Assembly (NCBI GenBank): GCA_027487075.1
Contig: JAIYEG010000010.1
Coordinates: 111,270-175,269 of the forward strand
Direction: 5' to 3'
From: a bacterium
GTDB lineage: Bacteria; Patescibacteriota; Minisyncoccia; Phycocordibacterales; CALRBL01
DNA length: 64,000 nt
Both the position numbers and the translations under genes were made by a program. Below the pieces are notes generated by a model, which saw nothing but the letters and a program-made list of their open reading frames with translations, did no database searches and had not been told where the DNA came from. Of this stretch, positions 1,888-62,798 are shown in pieces. Position 1 is the stretch's first letter; each line of letters opens with the position of its first letter.

Positions 1888-4800
1888 CTACAACGCAGGA
1901 GCTTCAACAGGAGCTGATTCTTCTACGGGAGGAGTCACCGTTTCTTCTTCAGTTACGTGAGTATCTACGGTAGTCTCAGTTGTCGTTGAAGTTGTCGTAG
2001 ATTCTTCGGTTGTCGGATCAGTATGTGTGGAATCGGTATAACTTACAGAAACGGGACGACTTGAATTCTCAAGCAATTGATCAACCTGATCTCGAGAAAG
2101 ACAGGTCTCACCACTTGCATCGCTAATACAAAGCTTATCGGTCTTCACTTCTTTTGTCTCAAAGAACGTAGCCATACTTTCGATCTTCTTCCACATTTCC
2201 TGCATACCAGCAATAATAAGCGCTGGGAGACGTGAGTAGTTGATTCCCATGAATCCATCGGTTTTATTCACAAACGTAATTTCTGGGAAAATCTTTTCCA
2301 TATCCTGCGCAATGAAGCCGAAATCCATCTTACCCTCTGTATCACCTTTCCATGTATATGACACGGGATTAAGCACAAGAAGTTTCTGAAGAGTCGTTGA
2401 AGCCTGTTCAGTAGTAGATGCAAGCGACACAACATTATCTTTCAAGCGTTCATCAGAAGTATTGGTGGTAAGTACACCATCTGCTGTGATACGAATATCA
2501 TTTGCAGCTGCTGCGCTCCCTACCGCCGTGAATTGTGCATTGCCTGTTACGACGAGTCTTTGCAACGGAGTCGTAGTGCCTATCCCCACGTTTCCAGAGC
2601 TAAGAATTGACAACTTTTCCTGATCAGACGCAATACCTGGAGTGACGAATGCAAACCTACCATTTCCTAGGCTGTCAGCAGCAATGAACGTAAATACTCC
2701 AAAGTCTCTATCACCCGAACTATCAAACCCACGGAATTGAATTTTCCCAAGCCAATCCCCTGGCGATATAACCACTGGCAAAGCCGCAGTTCCACGAGAT
2801 CGTGTAATAAGAATACCTCCAGCTCCTGCCGCTGCGTCGTTTGTGCTATATCTCTTAAACTGACCAAGTCCTACAGTTCCCTCAACTGCGAGAGGAAAAC
2901 CTGGAGTTGCTATACCAATACCAAGACGTGAATTAGTATTATCCCAGAACAAGTTTGCATTACTCTGGTTTAATGAACCTCCCGTTGCAAAGAATGGAAT
3001 CGAACCAGCGGTAAAATTAGTAAAGGTTGATGAAGCAACACTCAACGTTCCCGTACCAAGAATATTTCCCGCAACGGAGAGTCTTGTACTTGGAGAACTT
3101 GTACCAATACCCACGTTACCAAAGACGTCAACTTTCAAATGCGGTGTCCATGTTGTGCCGTTATGACCCATCACTGAGAAACCGCCTGTGCCGCTGTTTC
3201 GTGTATCAAAGACAATCTCAGCACCTCCGCGTTGTGCACTATTTGTATAGTTATTTCCAAACATCTGAATATATCCACCCTTAGGAGTTCCTGACCCATC
3301 AAGAATTCCCATATTCAATAGATCTGTTGCATCATCTTTGAACACACGCGATGAAGCTCCTGTAAGTGCGATATTACCATTGACATCAAGTCGAGCTGAA
3401 GGAGTGCTGGTACCGATACCCACATTTCCTGATTGAAGCACCGTAAAGAATGTTGAACCACTTGATGATGCAACCGTGAATGGATTATATCCTGCGTTAC
3501 CCCTCACGAAGAATGAAGTAAGCGTAGAGGTACCATTAACTCCAGCGAGTAATCCTGTATCAAACAAGCTACCAGATGTAAGCGTATTATCTGATCCCCA
3601 TGTCACCAAGCGATTCACGATGCCGTAGCCACCAAGTGCATTTTGTTTTGTTGACGGACGTAAGGTTGCATTGATTTCATTAAGAAATGCATCTGCAATA
3701 TGGAGCATACCACTATCGTTCGGATGAATTCCGTCGTTTATATAATCTTGCGTTAGAACCATGTACGACGCTGTATCAACATAAGCGATATTCAACCCAT
3801 CAGCAGCAAGAAGTCGTACATTTTCTTTTGTTCGCTCATTGTATGCATAAATGGTAGCTGCGGACGGAGATCCTGAAGAAGCAAGTATAGTACCACCCAC
3901 AAATACTGCAGGACCTTTATTGAGACTAAAACCCTTATTACCTGCCGCCCAATCAAAGTACACTTTATTTGATGCACTCGTTGGTGAAGTTACGGTCAAT
4001 ACCACAGTATGAGTCCCTTCAGAAAGATTAGGAATTCTCAAAAGCGCTGAGCCGAAATTGCGATTACGTTGAGGTGTCAAAATTTGCCCACCCGATGTTC
4101 CTGTATTTGAATATGTTCCATAATTAACCCCGTCGATGGTAACCGAGAATTGCCCTCCATTTCCGTCTTCCATCGTGTATGCAATATAAGCAGTAGTACC
4201 CTTGATCGTGAACGTTGCGGTAGCACCGTTTGTAGTCGAGTACCTACCTATATTGCCTCCATAATAAGAGCTATCAAGCCATGTTCCTGCGTACACAGGA
4301 CTCGATGATCCTGTAGACTGTCCTATTACTTTATTTTCATGTGGAATTGCTAACCATGCATTCGCAGCTCTTTGGAATAATTGTGAGTTGGTGAGTTGTC
4401 CTGTTGAGAAATATGCTGAGAGGTCGTTCGTTCCTATCATATAGGTAAAGAGCTCTGAGGAAGTTCCGCTCACAATCTTCTGATATACAAATTCCTGAGA
4501 ATCTGCTGCAGCATCTCCACTTCGAGCTCTCTTTGTAATAGGGATACCAAGAGTATTAGCAATGGCATTAAAATACTGATTTGCTGCGCTGATAGACGTA
4601 CAACATCCTTCAGTTATAGAATCACCAAACGCAGTGTAGCTACTATAGGTGTGAATGATTGGTGCTTTAACAATATTTGAAGCGTATAGAGATTCAACAG
4701 TTGTAGTGCCGTTTACAGCAAGCTTAACTCCGGGAGTTGTGGTTCCAATACCCACATTTCCATTGCTAAGGATAGTGAATTTCTCTTGATCTTCAGCGAT

Positions 4801-7257
4801 ACCTGGTGCCATAAATGCAAACCTTCCATTACCGACTGTGTCAGAAGCAATAAATGCAAATGCGCCATAGTCAATATCAGCTGAACCATCAAAGCCACGG
4901 AACTGCACCTTACCAAGCCAATCTCCCGCATTCACTGGTAAAGGACTCGCCTGACTACCTTGTGCTCGGGTAAGCAAGAAACCTCCCGAACTTGCGGCGT
5001 TTGAACTCACTCCGTTTGCTGCATAGCGCTTCAATGAGGCAAGTGCACTTGCCCCTTCAATTTGAAGCATGAACGCTGGGTTTGCAGTTCCAATACCCAC
5101 ATTTCCTGATCCAGCATTGACAAAGAGTGATGGATTACTACTTGTTCCTACCCGCAAACTTCCCCACACATCGAGTCTCTGTGAAGGAGTGGTTGTTCCA
5201 ATACCAACATTTCCCGATGAATCAACGACCAATCGAGAGGCATTTGCCATATCATCAAAAATAGCAAACTTTCCACCACCAAGACCCGAAGTGTTGTTGG
5301 TGCTTACAAAAGAGTATGATCGTCCACCTGTTGCAGGATCCTGAAGTTGAACACCTGTCGAAGTGGTGAGACCTGTTCCTACAATATGCAGTGCGCGGTT
5401 TGGTGTGCTTGTACCGATCCCCACGCTTCCACCAAATGAGGCGAATGTGGCTCCCTGGCTTGTTACCCTACCAGTACCAGTATTATTTACCAGATTTGTA
5501 ATGCCGGTGCGTTGCATTGTTCCCGATTCAAACAATTCAGCAGTACCCGACAGTGACACGAGATAAGGAAGCGGCGTTACGTTATTAACAATAATAGTTG
5601 CACCGCTCATTTTTATTTTTCCAGAACTTGCACTCACCATACTGTCTACTCCTACGTCATAGGTTTCGAGATAAAAATTAGGATTGACGAGTGAGACGTT
5701 TGCGCCCGTCGAAACGATGTATGGTCCTGAAAGTGAACCCCCAGGATTTTCAAAGTGATTGTTGCTCAATACGATTGAAAAAGCGCTGGCACCGATATTT
5801 ACACGACATGAATCAAATGATCCTCCATCAAAAATTCCTGATGCAAGTCCTCCTTGCAAATCTACACAAGTAGCAGATGATGTGCCATTGGTATTTGCAA
5901 AGGTTGTATCTCTAAACATCAGATTTTCTCCACTATTAAAGAGGCCATTAGGGTAAAAGAGGTTCTTACCGTTATTAACAATAATAGAGTGATCAAACTT
6001 TGTGAGCCATGTCTGATCTCCGTATTGAATTCCGATACCGAAACCTTGAATTTTTATACTATCTCCCAAGAACCCCGTTGCTCCATTGTTTCCTCCGAGC
6101 ATAATACCGATAGTTGGATTGCTGCGATTGGTACCTGACAACACAAGATCACGCAGACCAGAGCCAAACGTTAACGTACCAGGGAAATTAAACGTAAATG
6201 CCGTACCCGTACTTGGGGTATACAGCAATCGAGTACACTCTCCCGCACCCTGCAAAACAACTCGTTTATTAATAAGAATTGAAGTGATGTGATATACACC
6301 ACAAGGGAAATACACAACTCCTGCAGAATCAGAAGCTGCAGCAGATATAGCAGCAAGCACTGCAGTCGTATCATCAGCTGATCCATCACCTACGGCCCCA
6401 TACGCTTTTACGTTTGCCACTTGTCCATTCTTATCAAAAATTGAAGCTTTGAGTGATCCCCCCACTTCTACTTGTCCTCCACCTCTATTCAAAATAAGCG
6501 GGTTGGTGCCATTTGCTCCCGAATCAATAACAGCAGAACTACTAGCATTCACCCACAAACGAAGTGATCCATTTACTCCGCTATTTACCAAAGCAATTCC
6601 TCCAGCACTTGAATCAATACCTTGGAAAATCTCAAGGCGTCCTCGAGAAACGTTTGACGTCCCTATTCCCACATTTCCATTTAAATAGTACGCGGTAGTT
6701 CCCGTTGCAGCCCACGGACTGACAAGACCATTATCAAGAATATCGGCAATCTGATCGGTAAGTGTGTCCACATCGGTTTGTACACCATCAATTCTTTCTT
6801 CAAGACTTCTTACACGACGTGCGAGTCCGGATGTGTTTCCTCCTCCACCCGTAGTACGCACCTGAGTTATAATTGTTGTCGTTGCCGGAACATAACTCTC
6901 ATAATAATTAATTGTTGTATTGTTGGTGGTAACGATAACAGGATACAACGTTGCACCAAGTGACTGATTGAGTGTTGCTTTTGCTTCTTTAATTTCTTCG
7001 GGAGCATACGTAAACACGGTTGGAACAACTGAACCATCGTTAGATGAAATAGTGGCTGGTTGAGGAACAACATACGAAAGCACGGAATCAACAGCTGATG
7101 CGAACGTACGATAAAACTTATCATACAGAGAAAAGACTGACGAAGAAAATCCGGCTGCCGCAGAAACCTGAGGCAACGCACATGAAAAAACAAGCATTGC
7201 AATGAGAATGTAGTGTCGTGGTGTACTGAAGTTTTTCATTTGCAATATATAAATCAC
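1888..7257 (-). CDS. Giant secreted multidomain protein: signal peptide, pectate-lyase-3 (tailspike-like) beta-helix, Gly-rich tail-fibre-like repeats, SGNH/GDSL hydrolase, more repeats, C-terminal peptidase-S74 intramolecular-chaperone domain, Thr/Glu-rich tail
   Basis: 1789-aa ORF; the likely start is MKNFSTP at about 7239, giving a signal peptide ...ALPQVSAAAG. KAYGAVGDGSADDTTAVLAAI sits at about 6361-6420. GDSL blocks FGDSITEG (about 4600), GTNDL and DGIHPND (about 3700) are present. More than 10 repeats of SGNVGIGT(S/T)TP...RL.V.G occur. The C-terminus has SDERLKDNV...LNPVSYTWK...GFIAQDMEKIFPE (about 2170-2450), typical of the S74 chaperone domain of phage tail fibres and endosialidases. 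Confidence 0.75.
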   Translation of the reverse strand: MIYILQMKNFSTPRHYILIAMLVFSCALPQVSAAAGFSSSVFSLYDKFYRTFASAVDSVLSYVVPQPATISSNDGSVVPTVFTYAPEEIKEAKATLNQSLGATLYPVIVTTNNTTINYYESYVPATTTIITQVRTTGGGGNTSGLARRVRSLEERIDGVQTDVDTLTDQIADILDNGLVSPWAATGTTAYYLNGNVGIGTSNVSRGRLEIFQGIDSSAGGIALVNSGVNGSLRLWVNASSSAVIDSGANGTNPLILNRGGGQVEVGGSLKASIFDKNGQVANVKAYGAVGDGSADDTTAVLAAISAAASDSAGVVYFPCGVYHITSILINKRVVLQGAGECTRLLYTPSTGTAFTFNFPGTLTFGSGLRDLVLSGTNRSNPTIGIMLGGNNGATGFLGDSIKIQGFGIGIQYGDQTWLTKFDHSIIVNNGKNLFYPNGLFNSGENLMFRDTTFANTNGTSSATCVDLQGGLASGIFDGGSFDSCRVNIGASAFSIVLSNNHFENPGGSLSGPYIVSTGANVSLVNPNFYLETYDVGVDSMVSASSGKIKMSGATIIVNNVTPLPYLVSLSGTAELFESGTMQRTGITNLVNNTGTGRVTSQGATFASFGGSVGIGTSTPNRALHIVGTGLTTSTGVQLQDPATGGRSYSFVSTNNTSGLGGGKFAIFDDMANASRLVVDSSGNVGIGTTTPSQRLDVWGSLRVGTSSNPSLFVNAGSGNVGIGTANPAFMLQIEGASALASLKRYAANGVSSNAASSGGFLLTRAQGSQASPLPVNAGDWLGKVQFRGFDGSADIDYGAFAFIASDTVGNGRFAFMAPGIAEDQEKFTILSNGNVGIGTTTPGVKLAVNGTTTVESLYASNIVKAPIIHTYSSYTAFGDSITEGCCTSISAANQYFNAIANTLGIPITKRARSGDAAADSQEFVYQKIVSGTSSELFTYMIGTNDLSAYFSTGQLTNSQLFQRAANAWLAIPHENKVIGQSTGSSSPVYAGTWLDSSYYGGNIGRYSTTNGATATFTIKGTTAYIAYTMEDGNGGQFSVTIDGVNYGTYSNTGTSGGQILTPQRNRNFGSALLRIPNLSEGTHTVVLTVTSPTSASNKVYFDWAAGNKGFSLNKGPAVFVGGTILASSGSPSAATIYAYNERTKENVRLLAADGLNIAYVDTASYMVLTQDYINDGIHPNDSGMLHIADAFLNEINATLRPSTKQNALGGYGIVNRLVTWGSDNTLTSGSLFDTGLLAGVNGTSTLTSFFVRGNAGYNPFTVASSSGSTFFTVLQSGNVGIGTSTPSARLDVNGNIALTGASSRVFKDDATDLLNMGILDGSGTPKGGYIQMFGNNYTNSAQRGGAEIVFDTRNSGTGGFSVMGHNGTTWTPHLKVDVFGNVGIGTSSPSTRLSVAGNILGTGTLSVASSTFTNFTAGSIPFFATGGSLNQSNANLFWDNTNSRLGIGIATPGFPLAVEGTVGLGQFKRYSTNDAAAGAGGILITRSRGTAALPVVISPGDWLGKIQFRGFDSSGDRDFGVFTFIAADSLGNGRFAFVTPGIASDQEKLSILSSGNVGIGTTTPLQRLVVTGNAQFTAVGSAAAANDIRITADGVLTTNTSDERLKDNVVSLASTTEQASTTLQKLLVLNPVSYTWKGDTEGKMDFGFIAQDMEKIFPEITFVNKTDGFMGINYSRLPALIIAGMQEMWKKIESMATFFETKEVKTDKLCISDASGETCLSRDQVDQLLENSSRPVSVSYTDSTHTDPTTEESTTTSTTTETTVDTHVTEEETVTPPVEESAPVEAPAL

Positions 7258-7287: not shown

Positions 7288-8856
7288 CTACGTGTTTGAG
7301 ACCTGTTTCTGTGGATTCTCGTGCTTATTAAACTTAGGTGTCACCCAAAATCCCATATAGCGCCCGAGAAGAAGTCTCGTCTGCGCATCAAGACCTGGAA
7401 TGGCCCCAAAAATAATGATAGTGACCGGCACCAAGAGCCACTGGAAAAACATGAGGATGCGTGTTCGAGGCTTACCATCAGCACGAATAGCTGGAGGCAA
7501 GAAGCTTAAGAAGACAAACGCACTCACCACAAGTCCTAACATCGCAAGAATCATCAGATTTCTTGTGATAAACGGAAGATTGTATGAGAGCACGGTTGAA
7601 TTGAATACTTTTCCACCAATCGCAAGAGGTAACCATCCCAGAAGGAAAATAAAAATAGGATTTGTTGCAAGTGACCAATACCCCTCAAGTTGAATAAGAG
7701 TGGTCTTAATTTTTTTGCGGAGTGGAATTGCCTTATCTTTGATAAAACCAAAAAGAATGTACGGCACATTCTCTGCACCCCATGCCCAACGTCGCTGTTG
7801 TTTGTAAATATTTTTAAGAGTCTCAAAGAATGTCGGTGCAAGGTTTGCATCCATTGATACCGGATATGAGATAGATACCGTACGATAATTCCCTTCGTAC
7901 GCAAAGTATGCATTCCAGAAAATACGAGAATCCTCTGACACCATATTGCGCTGCCAATACCCAATCTCATACAGTGTTTTAAACGGTACACTGTGTGACG
8001 AGAAGGTGACGTTACGCTCTGGTCGCTCTTGTTGGGTCATCTGCCAAAAGGTTCCTGATCCAGCAACAACACGAGACAATGCAGGTGCATTCCAAATGTT
8101 GTTGTTATAAAACGGCACCGGCTGATATGAAGCATGATAAGGATCTTCTTCAGTAAGGAAATACCATGTCACACACTGGAAGTAGTGAGGATACACGACC
8201 GTATCAATATCAAACGCAGACACCATGACGTCTTCATAGGGAATACGCTCAACATCAAGCACTTCTACACGAGCTCGTTCGATTGCCCATGAAATATTAG
8301 CTCCCTTTCCTGCCATTTCACCGGGAAGCCCTTCGGGATGAATTGTCGTGATGAAGTGTCCAAACTTGTCCGCATACATTGACTTTATCAATGCTGCAAG
8401 GTGCTCAGCCGACTTCCCTCGTTTTCCCTCGGCCGCGAGAACAACAATAATTTTTTTATGATCTGTCTTCGTAGCAAGAAGTGACTTCACGCTATTTTCA
8501 ATGGTTTCCTGCCCCTCGCTATAGAACGGCAAAATCACCATATGATAGATATGGTCATGCTTTACCTCGCTTAACATCTTGTCCCAATCTGCATGCAAGT
8601 TGTGCGTGATTCTTCGCCAATTTCTGCTGAGATAAAATGAAAGATAGATGGTCTTCAAAAGCCAGTAGAGGTCGAAGATGATGATGAAAATTGCTGCAGC
8701 AACAGGAAAAAAGTACGAGAGCGCCACGGTACCAAAAAGAGAACCCCACGAAAGGATCCCTGGAACCATCTCAAGAAATCGATAGAGTATATAGTCTTTA
8801 CCAGTGAGTTCGGTTGCTCTACCAACGTGAAAGTAAGGAGAGTTCTTATATGACAT
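7288..8856 (-). CDS. Family 2 glycosyltransferase, membrane-bound, processive type with QxxRW motif
   Basis: The ORF 7288..8877 begins with GTG inside the tRNA-Thr gene, so the ATG at 8856 (MSYKNSPYF) is more likely. It contains D,D motifs and QQRRWAWG with flanking TM helices, a cellulose/chitin-synthase-like fold. Confidence 0.7.
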   Translation of the reverse strand: MSYKNSPYFHVGRATELTGKDYILYRFLEMVPGILSWGSLFGTVALSYFFPVAAAIFIIIFDLYWLLKTIYLSFYLSRNWRRITHNLHADWDKMLSEVKHDHIYHMVILPFYSEGQETIENSVKSLLATKTDHKKIIVVLAAEGKRGKSAEHLAALIKSMYADKFGHFITTIHPEGLPGEMAGKGANISWAIERARVEVLDVERIPYEDVMVSAFDIDTVVYPHYFQCVTWYFLTEEDPYHASYQPVPFYNNNIWNAPALSRVVAGSGTFWQMTQQERPERNVTFSSHSVPFKTLYEIGYWQRNMVSEDSRIFWNAYFAYEGNYRTVSISYPVSMDANLAPTFFETLKNIYKQQRRWAWGAENVPYILFGFIKDKAIPLRKKIKTTLIQLEGYWSLATNPIFIFLLGWLPLAIGGKVFNSTVLSYNLPFITRNLMILAMLGLVVSAFVFLSFLPPAIRADGKPRTRILMFFQWLLVPVTIIIFGAIPGLDAQTRLLLGRYMGFWVTPKFNKHENPQKQVSNT

Positions 8857-8871
8857 ACATGTGATTGAGGG

Positions 8872-8944
8872 AGCCACCTCTCGGATTTGAACCGAGGACC
8901 TTCACTTTACAAAAGTGTTGCTCTACCAACTGAGCTAAGGTGGC
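8872..8944 (-). tRNA. tRNA-Thr(UGU)
   Basis: GCCACCT-TA-GCTC-AGTTGGTA-GAGC-A-ACACT-TTTGTAA-AGTGA-AGGTC-CTCGG-TTCAAAT-CCGAG-AGGTGGC-T. It has a cloverleaf and anticodon TGT. Confidence 0.85.
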
Positions 8945-9026: not shown

Positions 9027-9326
9027 TTACCGATAATACCGCGGAAATTTTCTTCGTACAAAATCCATTGCTTTCGAAAACCTTTCTTCTACTTCCTCGA
9101 TAATAAGGTGGATAAGAAGATGGAAGGTTCTTCGATTGAAGTAGCGAAGAAACTTTCGTACTTCTGCAATCTTTCTTCGAAGCACGTGATCCACTTTTCG
9201 TGCTCTATGTGACACAAGACGGTGGAAGAAATGCTCATCATGTAGTGTAACATAAAGTACACGAGACAGGATCATGAGTACGATCACCACCGCTGACACG
9301 ACAAAAATGTAGAAGTATATTGGCAT
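9027..9326 (-). CDS. Hypothetical small membrane protein; its ATG overlaps the tsf stop in a TAATG arrangement
   Basis: 99 aa with one N-terminal TM helix followed by a basic tail. The start/stop overlap suggests translational coupling. No recognisable family. Confidence 0.35.
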   Translation of the reverse strand: MPIYFYIFVVSAVVIVLMILSRVLYVTLHDEHFFHRLVSHRARKVDHVLRRKIAEVRKFLRYFNRRTFHLLIHLIIEEVEERFSKAMDFVRRKFPRYYR

Positions 9327-9784
9327 TACATCGCAGAGAAGCGAGCAAATCTCGCAATCTCAACTTTTTCTCCGAACTTCTGGATTGCTCCAGTAATAAG
9401 TCCGCCGATGGTAACATCTGGATTTTTGATGAACGGCTGCGCGAGAAGCGCTTCACTGTTTCCTTCTTCTACGTCAGATGCTGCAATGTGCATCGCAATA
9501 TCTTTTGCAAGGTCAGTGAACTCCTTATTCTTTGACACGAAATCGGTTTCAGACATGAGAAGCACCATAGCACCAATTGATCCACTTGAGTGAACATATG
9601 AACCAATCGCCCCCGCCCCAAGAACACGATCACCCTTCTTTGCAGCAATATCGGCGCTCTTTGCTCGAAGAATGTCGAGAGCTTTTTCCATATCACCCCC
9701 TGCTTCTTCGAGCGCCTTGCTACACTGCATTATAGAGATACCGGTCTTGTCGCGGAGCTCTTTGATCTGGTCCATGCTTGCCAT
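9326..9784 (-). CDS. tsf: Elongation factor Ts (short form)
   Basis: 152 aa starting MASMDQIKELRDKTGISIMQCSKALEEAGGDMEKALDILRAK, an EF-Ts UBA-like N-terminus. It lies downstream of rpsB as in the canonical operon. Confidence 0.85.
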   Translation of the reverse strand: MASMDQIKELRDKTGISIMQCSKALEEAGGDMEKALDILRAKSADIAAKKGDRVLGAGAIGSYVHSSGSIGAMVLLMSETDFVSKNKEFTDLAKDIAMHIAASDVEEGNSEALLAQPFIKNPDVTIGGLITGAIQKFGEKVEIARFARFSAM

Positions 9785-27928: not shown

Positions 27929-30244
27929 TTAACCTTTCTTCTCAATCTCCAAATGCATCATAATCCGCACGATCTCATCATCAGTTGCCTGAAGCATTTC
28001 TTTGTAGAGGCGGAGGCTTTCCTTACGGTATTCGACAAGCGGATCACGCTGTCCATACGCACGGAGGTTCACACTCTGACGTGAATAATCCATGAGCTCA
28101 AGATGATCAATCCAGAACAAGCTAATAGCTTGGAGCATGACTTGTCTCACCACATTAGTGAATTCTTTTTCAGGAATGAGCGCTTTCTTTGCATCAATTG
28201 CCGCTTTTTCTTCTTCAGTTCGTATCGCATACACCGCATTCCATTCTTCCATTACCACCTCTTCAGTGCCAGTGAGAATTTTACGACGACGATCATAGAC
28301 TGACTTTCGCTGAGTAGAGAGCACATCATCGTATTGAAGTGTGTGCTTGCGGGCATCAAAGTGGAATCCCTCGATCTTTGTCTGGGCATTCTCAAGGCCT
28401 TTACTGATAAGACCTGCTTGGATAGGTTCATCTTCGGGAATGCCAAAGCGTCCCATCATGTTCTTGATCGTATCTGTTGCAAACACTTTCATGAGATCGT
28501 CTTCAAGCGATACAAAGAACTGTGTTTCTCCGGGATCTCCTTGGCGTCCTGCTCGTCCGCGAAGCTGGTTGTCGATACGACGCGCTTCGTGACGTTCGGT
28601 ACCAAGGACGAACAAACCTCCAAGCGCGCGCACCTCCTCGACTTCTTCCGGAGTTGCCTGTGGACCTCCGAGCTTGATGTCCACTCCTCGTCCTGCCATG
28701 TTGGTAGCGATAGTCACCGCACCCTTCTTTCCAGCTTCCGCAATGATTTCTCCTTCACGTTCTGCAAACTGTGGCTTTGCATTCAAGATCTGATGCTTCA
28801 CTCCTTCCTTCTTCAAATAGTCGGCAAGTAATTCGTTCTTTTCGATCGAGACTGTACCAATGAGGATCGGTTGACCCTTTTTGTTGAGCTCTTTCACTTT
28901 CTTGGCGATAGCCATGAATTTTCCTTTTTCGGTTTGGAAGATGAGATCATTTTGATCGATACGAGCGATTGGTCGATGTGTCGGCACTTCGTATACATCA
29001 AGATTGTATACCTTGAGAAATTCTTCTTTGCTTGTTGATGCTGTTCCGGTCATTCCCGAAAGTTTTTTGTACAAGCGGAAATAGTTTTGGAACGTGATAG
29101 AAGCTGCAGTGCGTGACTCGCGCTGCACACGCACACCCTCTTTCGCTTCGATTGCTTGATGAAGGCCTTCTGACCATCGGCGACCTGGCTGAAGACGACC
29201 CGTCGATTCGTCGACGATGATCACCTCATCGCCCTTCACGACATATTCCTTGTTTACATTATAGAGCGCTTTCGCACGTACGGCGGTCTCAAGATGGTGC
29301 ACATACTTAATTCCCTTATCGGTGTAAATATTGCCGACACCAAGCATCTTCTCTGCTTTGTTGATACCTTCGTCAGTGAGTGAAATCTGTTTGAACTTCA
29401 GATCGACGGTAAAGTCCTCACCTTCAGTAAGCTTTGATGCAATCTTTGCAAAGGTTGCATAGAGATTTTCTGATTCGACAGTTGGCATTGAGATGATGAG
29501 CGGTGTACGTGCTTCATCAATGAGAATAGAGTCAATTTCGTCTACGACTGCATAGTGATAATCACGTTGACGAAGTTGTGCGGGATCACGCTCGATATTG
29601 TCGCGAAGATAATCAAAACCAAATTCATTGTTGGTACCATAGGTAATATCAGCATGATACGCATCTTTGCGTGATGCGGGTCGCAAAAATTCGTGCACGA
29701 CTTTGAAGGATGCCACTTGATCACGATTTGTATCAAGCTCAGTATGACTTGGATCATACATATATGATGCATCACCATTAATCACCCCAATGGTCATACC
29801 AAGAAATGCAAATACCTGCCCCATCCATACGGCATCACGACGTGAGAGATAGTCATTCACGGTCACTACATGCACCCCTTTTCCTTCAAGGGCATTGAGA
29901 TAAGTGGGCAACGTCGCCACCAAGGTCTTTCCTTCTCCGGTCTTCATTTCAGCAATTGCACCCTTGTGAAGGGTGATTCCGCCAAGAAGCTGCACATCGA
30001 AATGGCGCAACTTGAGTGTGCGCTGAGCTGCTTCTCGCACTACCGCAAATGCCTCAGGAAGAATATCATCGACAGTTTTCCCCTCAGCCAACTGAGCCTT
30101 AAAATAAGCGGTTTTTGCCTTAAGCTCCTCATCGGTGAGAGACTTGAGACTTTCTTCTAATGCATTAATCTTCGCAACGATCGGTGCAAACGAATCCAAC
30201 TGTTTCTGACTATGACTTTTGAAAAATGATTGTAAAAATGACAT
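27929..30244 (-). CDS. secA: Preprotein translocase ATPase SecA
   Basis: 771 aa with DEAD-like motors (MKTGEGKTLVATLP, DEVD), a preprotein cross-linking domain and a helical wing/scaffold. Confidence 0.95.
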   Translation of the reverse strand: MSFLQSFFKSHSQKQLDSFAPIVAKINALEESLKSLTDEELKAKTAYFKAQLAEGKTVDDILPEAFAVVREAAQRTLKLRHFDVQLLGGITLHKGAIAEMKTGEGKTLVATLPTYLNALEGKGVHVVTVNDYLSRRDAVWMGQVFAFLGMTIGVINGDASYMYDPSHTELDTNRDQVASFKVVHEFLRPASRKDAYHADITYGTNNEFGFDYLRDNIERDPAQLRQRDYHYAVVDEIDSILIDEARTPLIISMPTVESENLYATFAKIASKLTEGEDFTVDLKFKQISLTDEGINKAEKMLGVGNIYTDKGIKYVHHLETAVRAKALYNVNKEYVVKGDEVIIVDESTGRLQPGRRWSEGLHQAIEAKEGVRVQRESRTAASITFQNYFRLYKKLSGMTGTASTSKEEFLKVYNLDVYEVPTHRPIARIDQNDLIFQTEKGKFMAIAKKVKELNKKGQPILIGTVSIEKNELLADYLKKEGVKHQILNAKPQFAEREGEIIAEAGKKGAVTIATNMAGRGVDIKLGGPQATPEEVEEVRALGGLFVLGTERHEARRIDNQLRGRAGRQGDPGETQFFVSLEDDLMKVFATDTIKNMMGRFGIPEDEPIQAGLISKGLENAQTKIEGFHFDARKHTLQYDDVLSTQRKSVYDRRRKILTGTEEVVMEEWNAVYAIRTEEEKAAIDAKKALIPEKEFTNVVRQVMLQAISLFWIDHLELMDYSRQSVNLRAYGQRDPLVEYRKESLRLYKEMLQATDDEIVRIMMHLEIEKKG

Positions 30245-41653: not shown

Positions 41654-44600
41654 CTACCACCAAAGTCCTGTAAGACCTGATGCTTTCATCTGCGCGCGAG
41701 TCTTTGGACCGAAGGCGCCTGTTGCTGGAATGATACTATTTTTCTTTTGATATGCTGACAGAGCTGCTGCTGTTTGGGGACCGAAGGTGCCTGTTGCACC
41801 GTTTGGAATAGCAAACCCTTGTGCAATAAGAAGTGCTTGAAGTGCCTTAACATCATCACCTGTCATACCACTGCGAAGATCACGTGTTACTTGTGGAGCA
41901 GTTGATGTTGCGGGAGTTATAGGTGTTGTATTCGCATTCATAATGAACGCTCGTGTCTTAGGGCCGAAATACCCTGAAGCAGGTACGATACCATTTGCTG
42001 CTTGGAACCGCATAAGCGCTTGTCGCGTAAGCTGACCGAAGATTGTTGTCTCATTTCCAACTGAACCTGGTCCTGACGGAGCAATGACGAAGCCTTGTGC
42101 ATTAAGGAATTTTTGTAGCTCTCGCACATCATCACCTGACACACCTAGATCAATATTGCGCGTAAATACTACCGGAGATTGAGATGGTGTAGTTGTGACA
42201 TCTGTACGAGCAGTCACAGCACGTCGACTTCCTGATGTTCTACTCTTTCGAACTTGAGGAGCAGATTCACCACTTACAAAGTCTGGATATCTCCCCACGT
42301 GCATATACCATACAGGAACATTCGCAAAATCCCACTTACCTTGGAACGGACTCTTTGTATCAAGACCGAAGCCTTGGAAGTACTCTGCGTTTGCAACTTT
42401 TGTGGGTTGCACAGCATTAGAATTACCATTGCCTACCTCAAAATTATTAAACCAGAAGTTGTTGGTGATCGTATCACCCGTCTCACCATACCCCACAATA
42501 CCTCCTGTATCATATTCAGGATTAGCAACGATGTCTGAGGTAGAGAATGAATCAGAGATACCCGCATTATCATTGCTTTCACTATATCCTGCAATACCAC
42601 CTGTATTGTAGCCATCATTTATAACTGCGCCCGTGGAATATGCGCGCTCAATAGAGCCCGTATTGTATCCTACAATACCTCCCACATGACTAATTCCTGT
42701 TATGGTACTTGAAGCGTATACATCATGGATCAAACCTGTAGCTCCAAAATTAAATCCTGCAATACCTCCCGCATAATTACGACCTGTTACACTTCCGGTA
42801 AAATATGATGTACGTATCTCTTTACGGTTTTCTCCTACTAGACCTCCCGATGCACCACTCATCGCTTCAACATGTGCCGACGAGTGTGAACCGATAATAG
42901 TACTTCCACCAGACCGAAATGCATCAGCAAATGGTCCTGCGTACGTTCGTGTGTTCCATGTAGTTTGATACTCAATATTCTCAGGAGTAGCAGGATACGG
43001 AGCCATATCACGAGCGTATGTTGTCATACCTCGATATGGCAAGTAGGCAGCAGACTGTCCAAGCTCACCTATATCGCTATACGTTGCATGTTTGTAGAAG
43101 ACATTGTTGAGCAAGATAAAGCTTCGTTCGGTACCTTCGGTAGCAGGAGGAACATACGGGAATTCAATCGACATCTGATCACCGTAGCGCATTACCACGA
43201 AATGGTCATCGGCAGCATTGAGCAATTCTGTAACATTGCCATACTTGGTGAAGTTTCCATATTGATTCACAAATGGAAGTTCTGGAAGCGGTCTCACCTC
43301 ATAATAATCATGGTCATAGAAATGAGTACGATCAATTTTGGTGAATCCATAGTAACCGAGATCAGCACGTTCTGGTGAATGGGTGGTAGCGGTAAATGGA
43401 ATTTGAGGAGATCGATCAACCGCAAAATAATTTGCATTAAACGTATCGAATGCTACTTTTACTTGATACGTATTTGAAAGGAACTTACCTGTAAGATCAA
43501 TAACGCGAAGACGAGGTGTTCCGTCAGAACCAAGCTGACTCTTATTATAAATTTCAACCCACTTTCCTTGTGCGTCTTTTACCTGAATCGAACGTGCTGA
43601 ATTGCCTGGGAATTCTGCAGATGCCGCATAGTCACGCGCACCTCGCATAACAAGTTGGATACTTGATGTTCCCGACAAGTCACCGAAGTCCAGAATAAAT
43701 GACTTACGTAAATTCTTTGGATCATATTGACCTTTCTTATTTGCATAACTCCATTGATCATCGTATGCAGATAATGCCGATGTACAATCGACACCCTTCT
43801 CATCTACGCACGAAATAAGTGGATGAGTCGGTGTATTACTTACACTTCTCAACTGATCAAGTGAAGATACTCTTCCAAGTTGTTCAACGATGGTATAGCC
43901 AGGCTGATGATCAAAGGTCAAAAGCTTAAGCTCATCAAAATACACAATTTCGTTATACTCCTCTCCAATCTTCATGAGATACTTTCCATCTTTTGGTGCC
44001 AGATCTGCGCGATCAATAGAAGCAAGGTCGAGACCATTCAATTCTTTCGGAAGAAGTGAACCAACGTCATTGGTATACACATACTTTGTGCCATTCCATG
44101 TATAGACAAGGGGGCTTGAGTTAGGAAAGCTATTATTTGCAACGTGCACTCCCACAAGTCCTCCTACTCGATATCCTCCTGTCACATTTCCGGTACTATA
44201 TACATTCGTAAGGGTTCCCGATAACCCTCCTGCTACTGCACCGACAGAAGACTCCTCTCCGTAGATACTCACATTCTCTAGACCAAGGTTTTTTACCTCA
44301 GCGCCTGCCGAAATCGTTCTAAAAAGACCTACATAATATCCATCGGGGTCGGACCAATTGATTCCCCGATTGATATACAGGTTGCTAATTTTCTTATTAT
44401 TTCCATCAAAGTGGCCTGTGAAGCTCATGTGGGTAAAGCCTTGATTTACATTATTTCCTACAAACTCAAGGTCTCCAATAGGATTGAATCCTTTATCGTC
44501 AGTCCACTGACTTCCTTCGTTTGCTGGGTTTTCAGGATCTGTCGCCGCACAATCTATGTCGGTCGTAAGAATATAGTATTTATCCAAGAATGATTCATCA

Positions 44601-52785: not shown

Positions 52786-52950
52786 AGTTTTAAATTAACT
52801 TGAATTCAAGGCTCGGTCACGGATAATTTTTTGCTAAAAATTTCCGCGACCCCGCCTCGCGCCGTCGCGCTCCGGCTTTCGAGTCCGCGTTACGCTTTCC
52901 ACAAAAGCTACGCCGTCTCTCAGTCTCGCTCACCCTTCGGGTATCGCTTG

Positions 52951-53021
52951 CTGCGAGACTAGGACTCGAACCTAGATAAACGGTGCCAGAAACCGTTGTC
53001 CTACCATTAGACGATCTCGCA
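52951..53021 (-). tRNA. tRNA-Gln(CUG)
   Basis: TGCGAGA-TC-GTCT-AATGGTA-GGAC-A-ACGGT-TTCTGGC-ACCGT-TTATC-CTAGG-TTCGAGT-CCTAG-TCTCGCA-G. U1-A72 and G73 are typical of Gln. The 74-aa ORF 52817..53041 across it is spurious. Confidence 0.85.
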
Positions 53022-62210: not shown

Positions 62211-62798
62211 TTAAATATTTTCAATAACCTTACTAATAGAGGTTTTAAGCTTCATATTATTGAAATACACCGTCAAAACCCCATGTTCAGATTTTCTACC
62301 ATAACTACCCTTTCCTCTTATCTGACTCACCACAATTGATGGATAAAAGTAGTCTAAACTAAAACCCAATTCCTTAGACCAAAATTGAAGAGCGACATTT
62401 GGATCAATATCGTTAAATATTTGTAAACCAAACCTCAACTTAGTGGCATCAATTTTATAAGTGTGTATTAAAAATTTTATGAACATTTTTATCAAACTCG
62501 GATCAGTATTTCCCAACCTTACTGAATACTTATTCCTTTTATTACCCTCACCCCAAAATAATCCAATACCTAAACCAAATAAAAAATCATCATAATTACT
62601 AATGTTTTGCGGAAGAGTAAATGGATCACCTTTTATATTGTTTTTAATATAAATTGATTCTGAAATTGATCTTTTCTCAATATTAAATTTTTTCAACCAG
62701 TAATTTACTTTTGAAACTGTGTAATTTACATCAAGCGCGATTTCAGCAGCTGATTTTTTATTACTTACATATTCTCTATACAAGTATTCTTTATCCAC
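62211..62798 (-). CDS. Free-standing putative LAGLIDADG-like homing endonuclease, AT-rich, immediately upstream of the intron-containing tRNA
   Basis: 195 aa. Residues 1-45 are helix-turn-helix-like. The motif DFLFGLGIGLFWGEGNK fits a degenerate LAGLIDADG (GIGLFWGEG), followed by a basic beta-saddle-like region. GC is about 30 percent. Confidence 0.45.
   Translation of the reverse strand: MDKEYLYREYVSNKKSAAEIALDVNYTVSKVNYWLKKFNIEKRSISESIYIKNNIKGDPFTLPQNISNYDDFLFGLGIGLFWGEGNKRNKYSVRLGNTDPSLIKMFIKFLIHTYKIDATKLRFGLQIFNDIDPNVALQFWSKELGFSLDYFYPSIVVSQIRGKGSYGRKSEHGVLTVYFNNMKLKTSISKVIENI

What the first reader, a model, noticed from the sequence alone, without database searches (positions are those of the whole stretch)
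1888..7257. About 1780-aa secreted protein built like a phage tailspike/tail-fibre, with pectate-lyase beta-helix, SGNH esterase and an S74 autochaperone
Sequence motifs place four modules in one chain: a tailspike-type beta-helix (KAYGAVGDGSADDTTAVLAAI), an SGNH/GDSL hydrolase with all blocks (FGDSITEG, GTNDL, DGIHPND), at least 10 tail-fibre-like repeats (SGNVGIGTxTP...RLDV.G), and a C-terminal S74-type intramolecular chaperone (SDERLKDNV...YTW...GFIAQDMEKIFPE). An extra Thr/Glu-rich acidic tail of about 100 aa follows, where S74 domains are normally terminal and self-cleaving. It has a signal peptide and sits in a housekeeping neighbourhood, directly downstream of a processive GT2 glycosyltransferase, with no other phage genes. 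It may therefore be a cell-surface, trimeric polysaccharide-degrading and deacetylating fibre of the organism itself, for example for host-cell attachment by an episymbiont, rather than prophage cargo.
Basis: partly seen in the sequence, partly recalled or inferred. Interest (0 to 1): 0.65.

Follow-up and report, generated by a model that had tools for sequence, protein, structure and literature searches.

The report
Phage-like surface fibre of a CPR bacterium
A tiny-genome (Patescibacteria/CPR) bacterium encodes, among its own housekeeping genes, a 1783-residue exported protein built like a phage tailspike or tail fibre with two sugar-processing modules; it is most likely the cell's own fibre for recognising and trimming the surface sugars of another microbe.

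Summary
ORF 1888-7239(-) encodes a 1783-aa protein with these parts:
- a signal peptide;
- a PF12708 right-handed beta-helix;
- an SGNH esterase with all catalytic blocks and an inserted CBM-like beta-sandwich;
- 8-9 GNVGIGT fibre repeats (not "at least 10");
- an S74 autochaperone with an SDERLK dyad.

The extra tail after S74 is about 60-85 aa, not about 100, and it recurs in related exported proteins.

The gene is chromosomal. It fills the gap between a conserved processive GT2 gene and LemA/M48, its codon usage is native, and no phage gene occurs in the 64 kb.

The closest solved structures of the fibre modules are the Bdellovibrio MAT prey-recognition fibres. Both enzyme modules have structural twins in phage tail proteins, but their closest sequence relatives are cellular enzymes in EPS loci.

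Near relatives carry fibres with the same rare N-terminal module but different distal content, once in the same slot. This is the MAT logic of a conserved base with mosaic tips.

The exact architecture is a singleton, and I found no paper describing such fibres in CPR bacteria.

Best reading (about 0.5): a Sec-exported, S74-matured trimeric fibre that binds, deacetylates and possibly cleaves a partner cell's surface polysaccharide. The main rival is processing of the cell's own GT2-made polymer.

Verdict: new variant of a known kind, moderate interest.

The parts
1888..7239 (-). Whole gene, 1783 aa + stop (ATG at 7239; an alternative GTG at 7257 adds 6 aa)
   Evidence: GC 0.439 and RSCU correlation 0.81 with the rest of the window
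7159..7239 (-). Signal peptide, aa 1-27 (MKNFSTPRHYILIAMLVFSCALPQVSA | AAG)
   Evidence: n/h/c regions read from the sequence and a hydrophobicity heuristic; the cleavage region is conserved in P0189 and P0285
6835..7158 (-). Lineage-specific N-terminal module, aa 28-135 (F.SF..SxVDS..S..VP, Pro-rich linker, PEE..EAK, GGGG.TSGLA); proposed cell-proximal base
   Evidence: only P0189 and P0285 align from the N-terminus among 1.84e9 representatives; alignment; absent from viral and JGI metagenome contigs
6715..6834 (-). Heptad coiled coil, aa ~136-175
   Evidence: 10 of 13 a/d positions hydrophobic in one register
6430..6714 (-). First GNVGIGT repeat plus a widespread ~75-aa fibre 'neck' module, aa ~176-270
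   Evidence: about 95 of the 100 hits of the exhaustive search match only this stretch
5440..6429 (-). Right-handed parallel beta-helix (PF12708, tailspike/AlgE-like), aa ~271-600
   Evidence: Pfam 48.9 bits; AF2 model pLDDT 82; Foldseek matches to phage tailspikes and AlgE4
4702..5439 (-). Fibre shaft with 4 GNVGIGT repeats, including MAT-like module copy 1 (aa ~700-858), aa ~601-846
   Evidence: phmmer to Bd2439 (8OL4) E 6e-9 and Bd1334; PHROG tail-fibre families
3598..4704 (-). SGNH carbohydrate-esterase module with an inserted CBM6/35/36-like beta-sandwich, aa 846-1214
   Evidence: Pfam; family alignment with conserved blocks; AF2 model pLDDT 89; Foldseek PDB and BFVD
2485..3597 (-). Distal fibre shaft with 3 GNVGIGT repeats plus one degenerate repeat, including MAT-like module copy 2 (aa ~1430-1583); predicted mature tip, aa 1215-1585
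   Evidence: phmmer to Bd2133 (8OND); tblastn to cyanophage, Thermus and Roseobacter tail fibres
2065..2457 (-). S74 intramolecular chaperone/autoprotease, aa 1595-1725; Ser1595 and Lys1600 in SDERLK; Cys1704-x8-Cys1713 motif at its end
   Evidence: Pfam 48.6 bits from profile position 1; motif and length comparison
1891..2064 (-). 58-aa Thr/Glu/Ser/Pro-rich acidic tail (T17 E9 S8 P6 D3 R1 K0), aa 1726-1783
   Evidence: recurrent in P0189, P0214, P0170, P0023, P0052 and P0024
7288..8856 (-). Upstream neighbour (context, not part of the fibre): processive-type GT2 with DID, SED, QQRRW and TM helices
   Evidence: conserved at this position in L001, L002, L010 and L089

Best explanation
The gene encodes the bacterium's own exported fibre. 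It is built on the same principles as phage tailspikes and tail fibres and as the Bdellovibrio MAT fibres.

Shown:
- The domain order is signal peptide, rare N-terminal module, coiled coil, PF12708 beta-helix, fibre repeats, SGNH esterase with an inserted CBM-like sandwich, more fibre repeats, S74 chaperone/protease, and an acidic tail.
- The location is chromosomal and the codon usage is native.
- Near relatives carry the same N-terminal module with different distal content.

Inferred mechanism:
1. The chain is exported unfolded by Sec (SecA is encoded at 27929-30244) and the signal peptide is removed.
2. Outside the membrane the C-terminal S74 domain nucleates trimerisation and the folding of the triple beta-helical shaft.
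3. S74 then cleaves itself off at Ser1595 using Lys1600, releasing the chaperone together with the acidic tail.
4. The mature trimer (about 1567 aa per chain) stays attached to the cell envelope through the conserved N-terminal module.
5. It projects a MAT-like tip (aa ~1430-1585) that binds a glycan on a partner or host cell.
6. The mid-shaft SGNH/CBM module removes O-acetyl groups. The beta-helix binds, and probably cleaves or modifies, the same polysaccharide. Together they would act as a receptor-binding and receptor-destroying device, like esterase and depolymerase tailspikes or influenza C HEF, letting the small cell reach its partner's surface.
For: Domains and active-site motifs:
- Pfam hits above curated cut-offs.
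- GDSIT/G/GxND/DxxH conserved in 63 homologues.
- SDERLK at profile position 1 of S74.

Structure:
- SGNH model pLDDT 89. It matches the two-domain acetyl-mannan esterase 6HFZ, CE2 esterases, influenza C/D HEF and, for the insert, CBM6/35/36.
- It also matches the Gordonia phage Beenie minor tail protein at E 6e-22, TMq 0.69.
- Beta-helix model pLDDT 82. It matches Geobacillus virus E2 ORF18, the Klebsiella K2-2 tailspike, AlgE4, and the CBA120, Sf6 and Pam1 tailspikes.

Fibre modules:
- The best PDB sequence hits are the MAT fibres Bd2439, Bd2133 and Bd1334. These are surface-displayed, S74-processed prey-recognition trimers (PMC10769870).
- PHROG tail-fibre families and phage tail fibres match the C-terminal third.

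Cellular origin:
- The gene is flanked tightly by GT2 and LemA/M48, which are syntenic in L002.
- Codon usage is native.
- No phage genes in 64 kb.
- No relative in viral contigs.

Family logic:
- P0189, in a genome whose nrdB is 91% identical, and P0285, directly downstream of a 78%-identical GT2, share the N-terminal module but have different distal parts.
- P0170 is a miniature version (SP, coiled coil, beta-helix, S74, acidic tail) in a cellular context on a 746-kb contig, next to GH26, GT2 and type IV pilus genes.
Against: - No experiment or multimer model supports trimerisation, cleavage or surface retention.
- No known anchoring signal is present: no LPxTG, no conserved lipobox, and no TM segment beyond the signal peptide.
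- The N-terminal module is not detectably related to anything characterised.
- Catalytic residues of the beta-helix were not identified, and binding-only helices such as PfbA are also among the matches.
- The lifestyle of this uncultured Parcubacteria-type organism is unknown.
- The closest sequence relatives of both enzyme modules lie in EPS or O-antigen biosynthesis loci, and the gene follows a processive GT2. That fits processing of a self-made polymer equally well.
- A signal-peptide-like N-terminus is not proof of cellular use, because fibre proteins on phage-like contigs also have one.
Confidence: 0.5

Rival explanations
1. Self-polysaccharide processing. The protein acts on the exopolysaccharide made by the adjacent processive GT2. 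It would trim, epimerise or deacetylate the cell's own surface polymer, as AlgE epimerases, AlgL, PslG, PgaB-type enzymes or EPS-locus hydrolases do. It would have no role in recognising another cell.
For: - The gene starts about 48 bp (30 bp from the GTG) after a GT2 with DID/SED/QQRRW motifs, on the same strand, with no terminator in between.
- Fibres also follow GT2 in L089 and, after an insertion, in L001.
- P0170 lies two genes from a GT2 and next to a GH26.
- The nearest beta-helix relative (P0166) and an SGNH relative (P0105) lie in EPS/O-antigen loci.
- The best sequence-level PDB hit of the beta-helix is the mannuronan epimerase AlgE4.
Against: - GT2 is a conserved core gene that has no fibre downstream in L002, and none detected by tblastn in L010.
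- The fibres in L089 and L001 show no enzyme modules in the parts available.
- P0189 sits at an unrelated site after nrdB.
- A shaft of more than 1500 aa with a MAT-like tip and S74 maturation is unnecessary for a housekeeping trimming enzyme.
- The slot downstream of GT2 is a rearrangement hot spot: pheST in L002, transposase plus secA in L001.
Confidence: 0.2
2. Freely secreted polysaccharide-degrading enzyme for nutrient scavenging. The trimeric fibre scaffold serves only as a stable extracellular carrier for a depolymerase and an acetyl esterase, and the protein is released rather than anchored.
For: - There is a signal peptide but no recognisable anchor.
- The SGNH/CBM module resembles secreted plant/mannan acetyl esterases (6HFZ, CE2) and CBM6/35/36.
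- The window encodes a sugar-fermenting core metabolism: PPP, glycolysis and PfkB-family kinase genes.
Against: - A conserved, lineage-specific N-terminal module followed by a coiled coil is shared by fibres with quite different distal parts. This is the pattern expected for a common attachment base, not for soluble enzymes.
- MAT precedents are surface displayed.
- Enzymes for bulk polymer degradation rarely carry about 1000 aa of fibre repeats.
Confidence: 0.15
3. Prophage remnant or phage cargo. The gene would be a stranded tail-fibre/tailspike gene of a degraded prophage, or a phage gene mis-binned into the genome, with no cellular function.
For: - PHROG tail-fibre hits.
- The C-terminal third matches phage tail fibres.
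- Beta-helix relatives inside fibre proteins are on phage-like contigs.
- The esterase has structural twins in actinophage tail proteins.
- tRNA genes lie nearby: tRNA-Thr at 8870-8944 and tRNA-Ser at 298-385.
Against: - No other phage gene occurs in 64 kb.
- The flanking genes are syntenic core genes with spacers of only 15-48 bp.
- GC content and codon usage are native.
- The 1783-codon ORF is intact.
- It has a Sec signal peptide and an N-terminal module shared with chromosomal genes of near relatives.
- The gene and its N-terminal module are absent from viral contig collections.
Confidence: 0.05

Closest known systems
Bdellovibrio bacteriovorus MAT (mosaic adhesive trimer) fibres, S74 subgroup (e.g. 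Bd3182; Bd2439, Bd2133 and Bd1334 structures 8OL4/8OND/8OML; Caulton et al. 2024, PMC10769870)
   Same: - A cellular, signal-peptide-bearing, ~1000+ aa fibre protein encoded on the chromosome of a bacterium.
- Fibre beta-helix modules detectably homologous by sequence (E 6e-9 to 3e-6).
- An S74 end with an SDxxxK motif.
- A conserved N-terminal region after the signal peptide with variable distal modules among paralogues/orthologues.
   Different: - Found in Patescibacteria, a phylum not listed for MATs.
- The N-terminal module shows no detectable similarity to any other hit, so homology with the MAT N-domain is unproven.
- Two carbohydrate-active modules are embedded mid-shaft, whereas MAT tips described so far are lectin-like, TNF-like, beta-sandwich or FGE-like.
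- There is an extra Cys-x8-Cys motif and an acidic tail after S74.
- Only one copy is seen in 64 kb, against 21 paralogues in B. bacteriovorus.
Phage tailspike depolymerases with a right-handed beta-helix and a C-terminal S74 chaperone (K1F endosialidase; Klebsiella K2-2 TSP 8IQ5; CBA120 TSPs; T5 pb1 fibre, PMC4690869)
   Same: - Beta-helix fold (Foldseek E about 1e-8, TMq 0.6).
- PF12708 N-terminal motif.
- S74 Ser-Lys autoproteolytic chaperone.
- GNVGIGT-type tail-fibre repeats.
   Different: - It has a Sec signal peptide and sits in a chromosomal housekeeping context.
- It lacks a virion-attachment N-terminus.
- It is much longer and carries two different enzyme modules in series.
- The chaperone is followed by about 85 extra residues. 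The T5 chaperone is the terminal 133 aa (PMC4690869, abstract as listed).
Esterase tail proteins and viral receptor-destroying esterases (Gordonia phage Beenie minor tail protein A0A2K9VH04; Arthrobacter phage Persistence hydrolase; influenza C/D HEF 1FLC/5E64; from my own knowledge, phage G7C gp63.1)
   Same: - An SGNH esterase with a beta-sandwich carbohydrate-binding or receptor-binding domain inserted into or fused to it, carried on an adhesion device.
- The whole-module match to the Gordonia phage protein is E 6e-22, TMq 0.69.
   Different: - Sequence identity is only about 20% or less.
- The closest sequence relatives (35-46% identity) are stand-alone cellular proteins.
- Here the module sits in the middle of a cellular fibre.
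Two-domain carbohydrate acetyl esterases (Roseburia RiCEX 6HFZ; CE2 family 2WAO/2WAA)
   Same: SGNH catalytic core plus a jelly-roll carbohydrate-binding domain, with catalytic blocks I, II, III and V.
   Different: - The domain order differs: here the sandwich is inserted between blocks III and V rather than appended. TM scores are therefore low (0.24-0.36).
- Substrate unknown.
AlgE4/AlgE6 mannuronan C5-epimerase A-modules (2PYG, 5LW3)
   Same: - The best sequence-level PDB match for the start of the beta-helix (E 2.5e-6), with a good fold match (TM about 0.6).
- Secreted polysaccharide-modifying enzymes.
   Different: - The epimerase catalytic motif (YG(F/I)DPH(D/E), recalled from my own knowledge) could not be recognised.
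- There are no Ca-binding R-modules.
- The overall protein context is different.

Membership tests
Peptidase_S74 / intramolecular chaperone of endosialidase (CIMCD) | Profile match above the curated threshold | tested here: met
   PF13884, 48.6 bits against a cut-off of 22, profile positions 1-55 of 58
Peptidase_S74 / intramolecular chaperone of endosialidase (CIMCD) | Catalytic Ser-Lys dyad in an SDxxxK motif at the start of the domain | tested here: met
   S1595-D-E-R-L-K1600; the motif is defined in PMC10769870
Peptidase_S74 / intramolecular chaperone of endosialidase (CIMCD) | Domain forms the extreme C-terminus (about 90-150 aa after the Ser) | tested here: not met
   189 aa follow the Ser, against 70-152 aa in 36 of 47 comparison proteins. 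The extra Cys-x8-Cys motif plus 58-aa acidic tail is shared by a minority of exported homologues
Peptidase_S74 / intramolecular chaperone of endosialidase (CIMCD) | Trimerisation-dependent self-cleavage | not testable with these tools
   Needs expression of wild type and S1595A and SDS-PAGE or mass spectrometry
SGNH/GDSL hydrolase (carbohydrate esterase type) | Blocks I (GDS), II (G), III (GxND) and V (DxxH) with Ser, Asp and His | tested here: met
   GDSIT, G, GTNDL and DGIHPND are present. They are near-invariant in 63 homologues (G27 D28 S29, G63, G91 N93, D324 H327 of the segment)
SGNH/GDSL hydrolase (carbohydrate esterase type) | Alpha/beta SGNH fold | tested here: met
   AF2 model pLDDT 89, pTM 0.88. 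The core matches GDSL esterase 4RW0 with target-normalised TM 0.81, and it also matches CE2 and RiCEX
SGNH/GDSL hydrolase (carbohydrate esterase type) | Esterase activity on acetylated glycans | not testable with these tools
   Needs an enzyme assay
PF12708 pectate-lyase-like beta-helix (tailspike depolymerase / AlgE / RGase A type) | Profile match and right-handed parallel beta-helix fold | tested here: met
   48.9 bits against a cut-off of 27. AF2 model pLDDT 82. Foldseek E about 1e-9 to phage tailspikes and AlgE4
PF12708 pectate-lyase-like beta-helix (tailspike depolymerase / AlgE / RGase A type) | Identifiable catalytic acidic residues in the groove | tested here: inconclusive
   In the 26-sequence alignment only the N-terminal cap motif is conserved. 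No residue-level structural alignment was available
MAT (mosaic adhesive trimer) fibre superfamily | Signal peptide and chromosomal (non-phage) gene | tested here: met
MAT (mosaic adhesive trimer) fibre superfamily | Fibre beta-helix modules homologous to solved MAT shafts | tested here: met
   phmmer: Bd2439 E 6e-9 (aa 749-849), Bd2133 E 2.6e-6 (aa 1524-1615), Bd1334 E 9e-4
MAT (mosaic adhesive trimer) fibre superfamily | Conserved ~130-aa beta-rich N-terminal domain of the Bdellovibrio MATs | not testable with these tools
   No full-length MAT sequence or N-domain structure was available. A conserved N-terminal module of similar size exists here, but it has only 2-4 detectable relatives
MAT (mosaic adhesive trimer) fibre superfamily | One end conserved, other end mosaic among family members | tested here: met
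   The giant protein, P0189 and P0285 share aa 1-~190 but differ distally
MAT (mosaic adhesive trimer) fibre superfamily | Trimeric, surface displayed, used in contact with another cell | not testable with these tools
   Needs multimer modelling, microscopy and proteomics of an uncultured organism
Prophage tail fibre / tailspike | Embedded in a phage structural/lysis/integration gene set | tested here: not met
   40 neighbouring ORFs across the window were scanned against Pfam and none is a phage gene. The flanks are syntenic with L002. Only 1.9 kb is visible to the left of the gene

The most novel reading that the evidence does not exclude
Parcubacteria-type CPR bacteria possess their own class of Sec-exported, S74-matured trimeric 'cellular tailspikes'. 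A rare conserved N-terminal base fixes them to the cell. The distal binding and enzyme modules (depolymerase-like beta-helix, SGNH/CBM esterase, MAT-like tips) are shuffled between genomes, and exchanged with phages and with EPS loci of other bacteria. This would give these ultrasmall cells a phage-like, rapidly evolving system for recognising partner cells and trimming their surfaces. The acidic tail after S74 would be an adaptation of the autochaperone to folding outside the cell.
Probability: 0.35. Interest if true: 0.75.

Novelty: new variant of a known kind. Interest (0 to 1): 0.55.

Why it matters
How CPR/Patescibacteria cells find and hold on to partner cells is largely unknown. The papers my searches returned implicate type IV pili (for example PMC12206443, listed).

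This is a concrete candidate of a different kind: a phage-like receptor-binding fibre that carries its own receptor-modifying enzymes and is encoded among core genes. It extends the MAT concept (predator fibres related to phage tail fibres) to a new phylum and to enzyme-bearing fibres.

It also gives a testable set of predictions:
- S74 self-cleavage at Ser1595;
- acetyl-esterase activity of aa 846-1214;
- glycan binding by the tip;
- cell retention through aa 28-135.

The modules could also be useful as glycan-specific enzymes.

It remains a single uncultured-genome example with no functional data, so its weight is that of a well-characterised lead.

Tried and rejected
Searches that found nothing:
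- Giant protein in GTDB species representatives: none.
- Exact gene look-up: not on record.
- Giant protein, N-terminal module and SGNH module in IMG/VR viral contigs: none.
- N-terminal module in JGI metagenome contigs: none.
- SGNH module against PDB sequences: none.
- S74 region against PDB sequences: only a marginal hit to the phage S16 fibre 6F45. The S74 assignment therefore rests on Pfam.
- Promoter/terminator scan: fewer sites than in shuffled sequence, so uninformative.
- Paralogues elsewhere in the window: none.
- Literature searches for CPR or Parcubacteria together with S74, tail fibre or MAT: no relevant paper.

Ideas considered and rejected:
- Lipoprotein anchoring. The Cys in 'VFSC' is not conserved in P0189 or P0285, and the -2 residue is atypical.
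- Sortase anchoring. There is no LPxTG.
- Recent horizontal insertion at the nearby tRNA genes. Composition is native and the flanks are syntenic.
- Signal peptide alone as proof of cellular use. Fibre proteins on phage-like contigs also have one.


Full report
**1. What is in the sequence.**
Window 1888..7257 on the minus strand is one uninterrupted ORF. The public gene call starts at the ATG at 7239 and gives 1783 aa (P0001). I use that numbering, which is ORF numbering minus 6.

Pfam supports the three named domains above their curated cut-offs:
- Pect-lyase_RHGA_epim (PF12708), 48.9 bits against a cut-off of 27, ORF residues 281-444.
- Lipase_GDSL and Lipase_GDSL_2, 43.9 and 42.7 bits. The match is split into an N-terminal part and a C-terminal part.
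- Peptidase_S74, 48.6 bits against a cut-off of 22. It begins at profile position 1, exactly on the Ser of SDERLK.

PHROGs gives tail-fibre families for the repeat regions and the C-terminus.

The N-terminus reads as a Sec signal peptide: K2/R8, a hydrophobic core at aa 11-22, and V-S-A before A28.

There are eight strict G[NS]VGIGT motifs plus one degenerate motif, so 'at least 10' is slightly high. A module of about 155 aa (aa ~700-858) is duplicated at aa ~1430-1583 with 58% identity, E 1e-45. A clean heptad coiled coil lies at aa ~136-175.

**2. The two enzyme-like modules.**

*SGNH module (aa 846-1214).*
- It has 67 database relatives. Identity is about 35-46% among the closer ones (down to about 30% overall), over about 90% of the module. 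All are stand-alone proteins of 310-640 aa.
- In a 63-sequence alignment the catalytic blocks GDSIT, G, GxND and DxxH are near-invariant.
- The AlphaFold2 model is confident (pLDDT 89, pTM 0.88). It shows an SGNH alpha/beta core with a beta-sandwich inserted between blocks III and V.
- Against the PDB, the model matches the two-domain acetyl-mannan esterase 6HFZ, CE2 esterases and the influenza C/D haemagglutinin-esterase-fusion proteins. The insert matches CBM6/35/36.
- Against predicted viral structures, the best matches are much stronger and cover the whole module: Gordonia phage Beenie minor tail protein (E 6e-22, TMq 0.69) and Arthrobacter phage Persistence hydrolase (E 8e-19).
- At sequence level, deposited phages give only weak hits (E about 3e-4).
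- The close relatives I looked up are chromosomal. One lies beside an EPS cluster with Wzy, GT4, WecG and two acyltransferase-3 genes, plus a PF12708 protein nearby.

*Beta-helix (modelled as aa 250-640).*
- The model has pLDDT 82.
- It is a right-handed parallel beta-helix. It matches Geobacillus virus E2 ORF18, the Klebsiella K2-2 tailspike, the CBA120, Sf6 and Pam1 tailspikes, AlgE4/AlgE6 epimerases, an alginate epimerase/lyase, the RbmB lyase and the adhesin PfbA.
- I could not identify catalytic residues, because only the N-terminal cap motif is conserved. Enzymatic activity of this module is therefore an inference.
- Its nearest relative, P0166, is a small secreted protein in an EPS/O-antigen locus.
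- The fibre proteins that share this helix (P0010, P0031) lie on phage-like contigs of about 37 kb.

**3. The fibre and S74 parts.**
- Of 87 partial homologues, about 70 share the repeat modules, 37 share S74, 4 share the beta-helix, and none shares the SGNH module or the N-terminus. The full architecture is therefore a singleton at this sensitivity.
- The best PDB sequence matches of the shaft modules are Bd2439 (8OL4/8ONF, E 6e-9), Bd2133 (8OND) and Bd1334 (8OML/8ON4).
- These are the Bdellovibrio bacteriovorus MAT fibres. The paper describes signal-peptide-bearing, surface-displayed trimers used in prey recognition. Thirteen of the 21 end in an S74 domain with an SDxxxK motif that self-cleaves. 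All have a conserved N-terminal domain and variable tips (PMC10769870).
- The paper's list of MAT-like proteins in other phyla includes no Patescibacteria and no esterase-bearing or lyase-bearing members.
- Phage tail fibres of cyanophages, Thermus phages and Roseobacter phages match only aa ~1250-1700, at 25-31% identity.

**4. The end of the protein.**
- From Ser1595 to the C-terminus there are 189 aa.
- In a regex-based survey of 47 S74-motif proteins with complete N-termini, 36 end 70-152 aa after the Ser. They usually end in a coiled coil.
- The giant protein adds a Cys1704-x8-Cys1713 motif and a 58-aa tail rich in Thr, Glu, Ser and Pro with no Lys.
- The same arrangement, a Cys pair followed by a long acidic or PTS-rich tail, occurs in P0189, P0214, P0023, P0052 and P0024. 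P0170 has the acidic tail without a detected Cys pair.
- Long extensions are enriched among proteins with an N-terminal export signal: 9 of 21 against 2 of 26, Fisher p = 0.006, using crude heuristics.
Because S74 cleaves at the Ser, the tail would leave with the chaperone. Its role is unexplained. One speculation is that it helps folding after Sec export.

**5. Genomic setting.**
- The organism is a Patescibacteria member of the Parcubacteria/Paceibacteria type. Its RpsB is 74-77% identical to the nearest MAGs, which are labelled Nomurabacteria, Paceibacterota and similar.
- Genes around the finding are tRNA-Ser, M48 peptidase, LemA, [giant gene], GT2, tRNA-Thr, a 99-aa ORF, tsf, rpsB, prfB, an SLT-domain protein, L25 and FBA. 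Pentose-phosphate and glycolysis genes, gatB, obg, secA, nrdAB and others follow. No phage gene was found in the 40 ORFs scanned.
- The giant gene has a spacer of about 48 bp after GT2 (30 bp from the GTG) and 15 bp before LemA.
- Its GC content (0.439) and codon usage (RSCU r = 0.81 with the rest of the window) are typical of the window.
- In L002 the order prfB-rpsB-tsf-orf99-GT2 ... LemA-M48 is conserved, but the slot holds a hypothetical gene plus pheS and pheT.
- In L001 the slot holds an IS200-like transposase, secA, and then a different signal-peptide fibre protein.
- The gene therefore sits in a rearrangement-prone slot between core genes and is not in a prophage. Only 1.9 kb to its left is visible in the window.

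**6. A small family with a conserved base.**
- An exhaustive HMMER search with aa 28-270 found 100 hits. About 95 match only a common fibre module of about 75 aa (aa 187-264).
- Only P0189 and P0285 align from the true N-terminus. P0214 and P0270 align partially.
- The giant protein, P0189 and P0285 share the signal-peptide cleavage region, F.SF..SxVDS..S..VP, a Pro-rich linker, PEE..EAK, GGGG.TSGLA and the coiled coil.
- P0189 (956 aa, with S74 and an acidic tail) lies directly after an nrdB that is 91% identical to the window's nrdB. A very close relative therefore carries a sister fibre at another site.
- P0285 lies directly after a GT2 that is 78% identical to the window's GT2. That is the same slot as the giant gene. 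A further fibre-repeat ORF follows it.
- P0170 (892 aa) is a miniature of the design: signal peptide, coiled coil, a beta-helix with a near-identical start, one repeat, SDERLK and an acidic tail of about 140 aa. It is encoded on a 746-kb contig next to RecG, PG-binding/PKD proteins, GH26, a GT2 and type IV pilus genes.
- A conserved proximal end with mosaic distal ends is the logic described for MATs.

**7. Interpretation.**
- *High confidence:* the domain architecture, the intact catalytic motifs of the SGNH and S74 domains, the chromosomal origin, and the homology of the shaft to MAT and phage fibres.
- *Inferred:* Sec export, C-terminally nucleated trimerisation, self-cleavage at Ser1595, retention through the N-terminal module, and use of the tip and the two mid-shaft modules to bind, deacetylate and perhaps cut a surface polysaccharide of another cell. 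I put this whole reading at about 0.5.
- *Main rival (0.2): the target is the cell's own polymer made by the adjacent GT2.* The GT2 has the processive DID/SED/QQRRW signature. Both enzyme modules have their nearest cellular relatives in EPS loci. Against this, GT2 occurs without a fibre in L002, with none detected in L010, and the family members move between sites.
- *Free secreted scavenging enzyme (0.15):* not excluded, because no anchor is recognisable.
- *Prophage remnant (0.05):* unlikely.

**8. Novelty.**
- Each module is of a known kind, and cellular S74-terminated fibres are known from predatory bacteria since 2024.
- New here are the phylum, the tandem enzyme modules inside a MAT-like shaft, the rare N-terminal base and the extended tail after S74.
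- My literature searches found no description of such fibres in CPR bacteria. The library is incomplete, so this is absence of evidence only.
- I rate it a new variant of a known kind, with interest 0.55.

Noticed in passing
window 41654-45454 (-): A second large envelope protein (1266 aa) with two C-terminal PG_binding_1 domains and a GLUG motif. Its GC3 (0.32) is as low as the giant gene's.
   Followed up: no
window 51127-52785 (-) and 62211-62798 (-): Two ORFs with only 29% GC, against about 45% for the window. The first has a weak KAP NTPase hit and lies next to tRNA-Gln (52950-53021). They are probably foreign islands. Conversely, 45.5-47.2 kb (LeuA-like) and 53-57 kb are above 50% GC.
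   Followed up: no
window 7288-8877 (-) and tRNA-Thr 8870-8944: The GT2 has DID, SED and QQRRW motifs with flanking TM helices, the processive synthase signature. It is conserved at this position in relatives. The listed GTG start overlaps the tRNA, so the true start is probably the ATG at 8856.
   Followed up: partly
L001 4302-7346; L002 13340-16974: The slot downstream of GT2 is a rearrangement hot spot. L001 has an IS200-like Y1 transposase plus secA there before a fibre gene. L002 has a hypothetical gene plus pheS and pheT.
   Followed up: partly
P0091, P0070, P0052, P0015 (Campbellbacteria/Doudnabacteria-labelled giant proteins): These CPR fibre-repeat giants begin with an HTH-like, apparently cytoplasmic N-terminus (KF.S.K.A....Y..DYI.QL.R.GKI) instead of a signal peptide. 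This suggests a different way of anchoring.
   Followed up: no
L086 10001-14626 and L087 8289-13367: Fibre proteins on phage-like contigs of about 37 kb have signal-peptide-like N-termini. L086 has ERF, YqaJ and a neighbouring tail-fibre gene; L087 has a SU10 adaptor and a LysM lysin. These proteins share the beta-helix with the giant protein.
   Followed up: partly
S74-bearing homologues (P0001, P0189, P0214, P0170, P0024, P0035, P0046, P0030, P0012): Extensions of 180 aa or more after the S74 serine are enriched among proteins with an N-terminal export signal: 9 of 21 against 2 of 26, Fisher p = 0.006, using a crude regex and a hydrophobicity heuristic. They are often preceded by a Cys-x4-9-Cys motif.
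   Followed up: partly
L091 1-6936: In a Patescibacteria MAG the fibre-repeat giant P0002 (2449 aa) lies next to another giant of more than 2600 aa with Pel9A-like beta-helices, Big_7, PA14 and CHB_HEX_C domains. The context is chromosomal: L20, L35 and IF3 are nearby.
   Followed up: no
window 9326-9784 (-): EF-Ts is only 152 aa. The tblastn alignment to relatives spans about 190 codons for 150 query residues, so the window's copy appears shorter than its relatives'.
   Followed up: no
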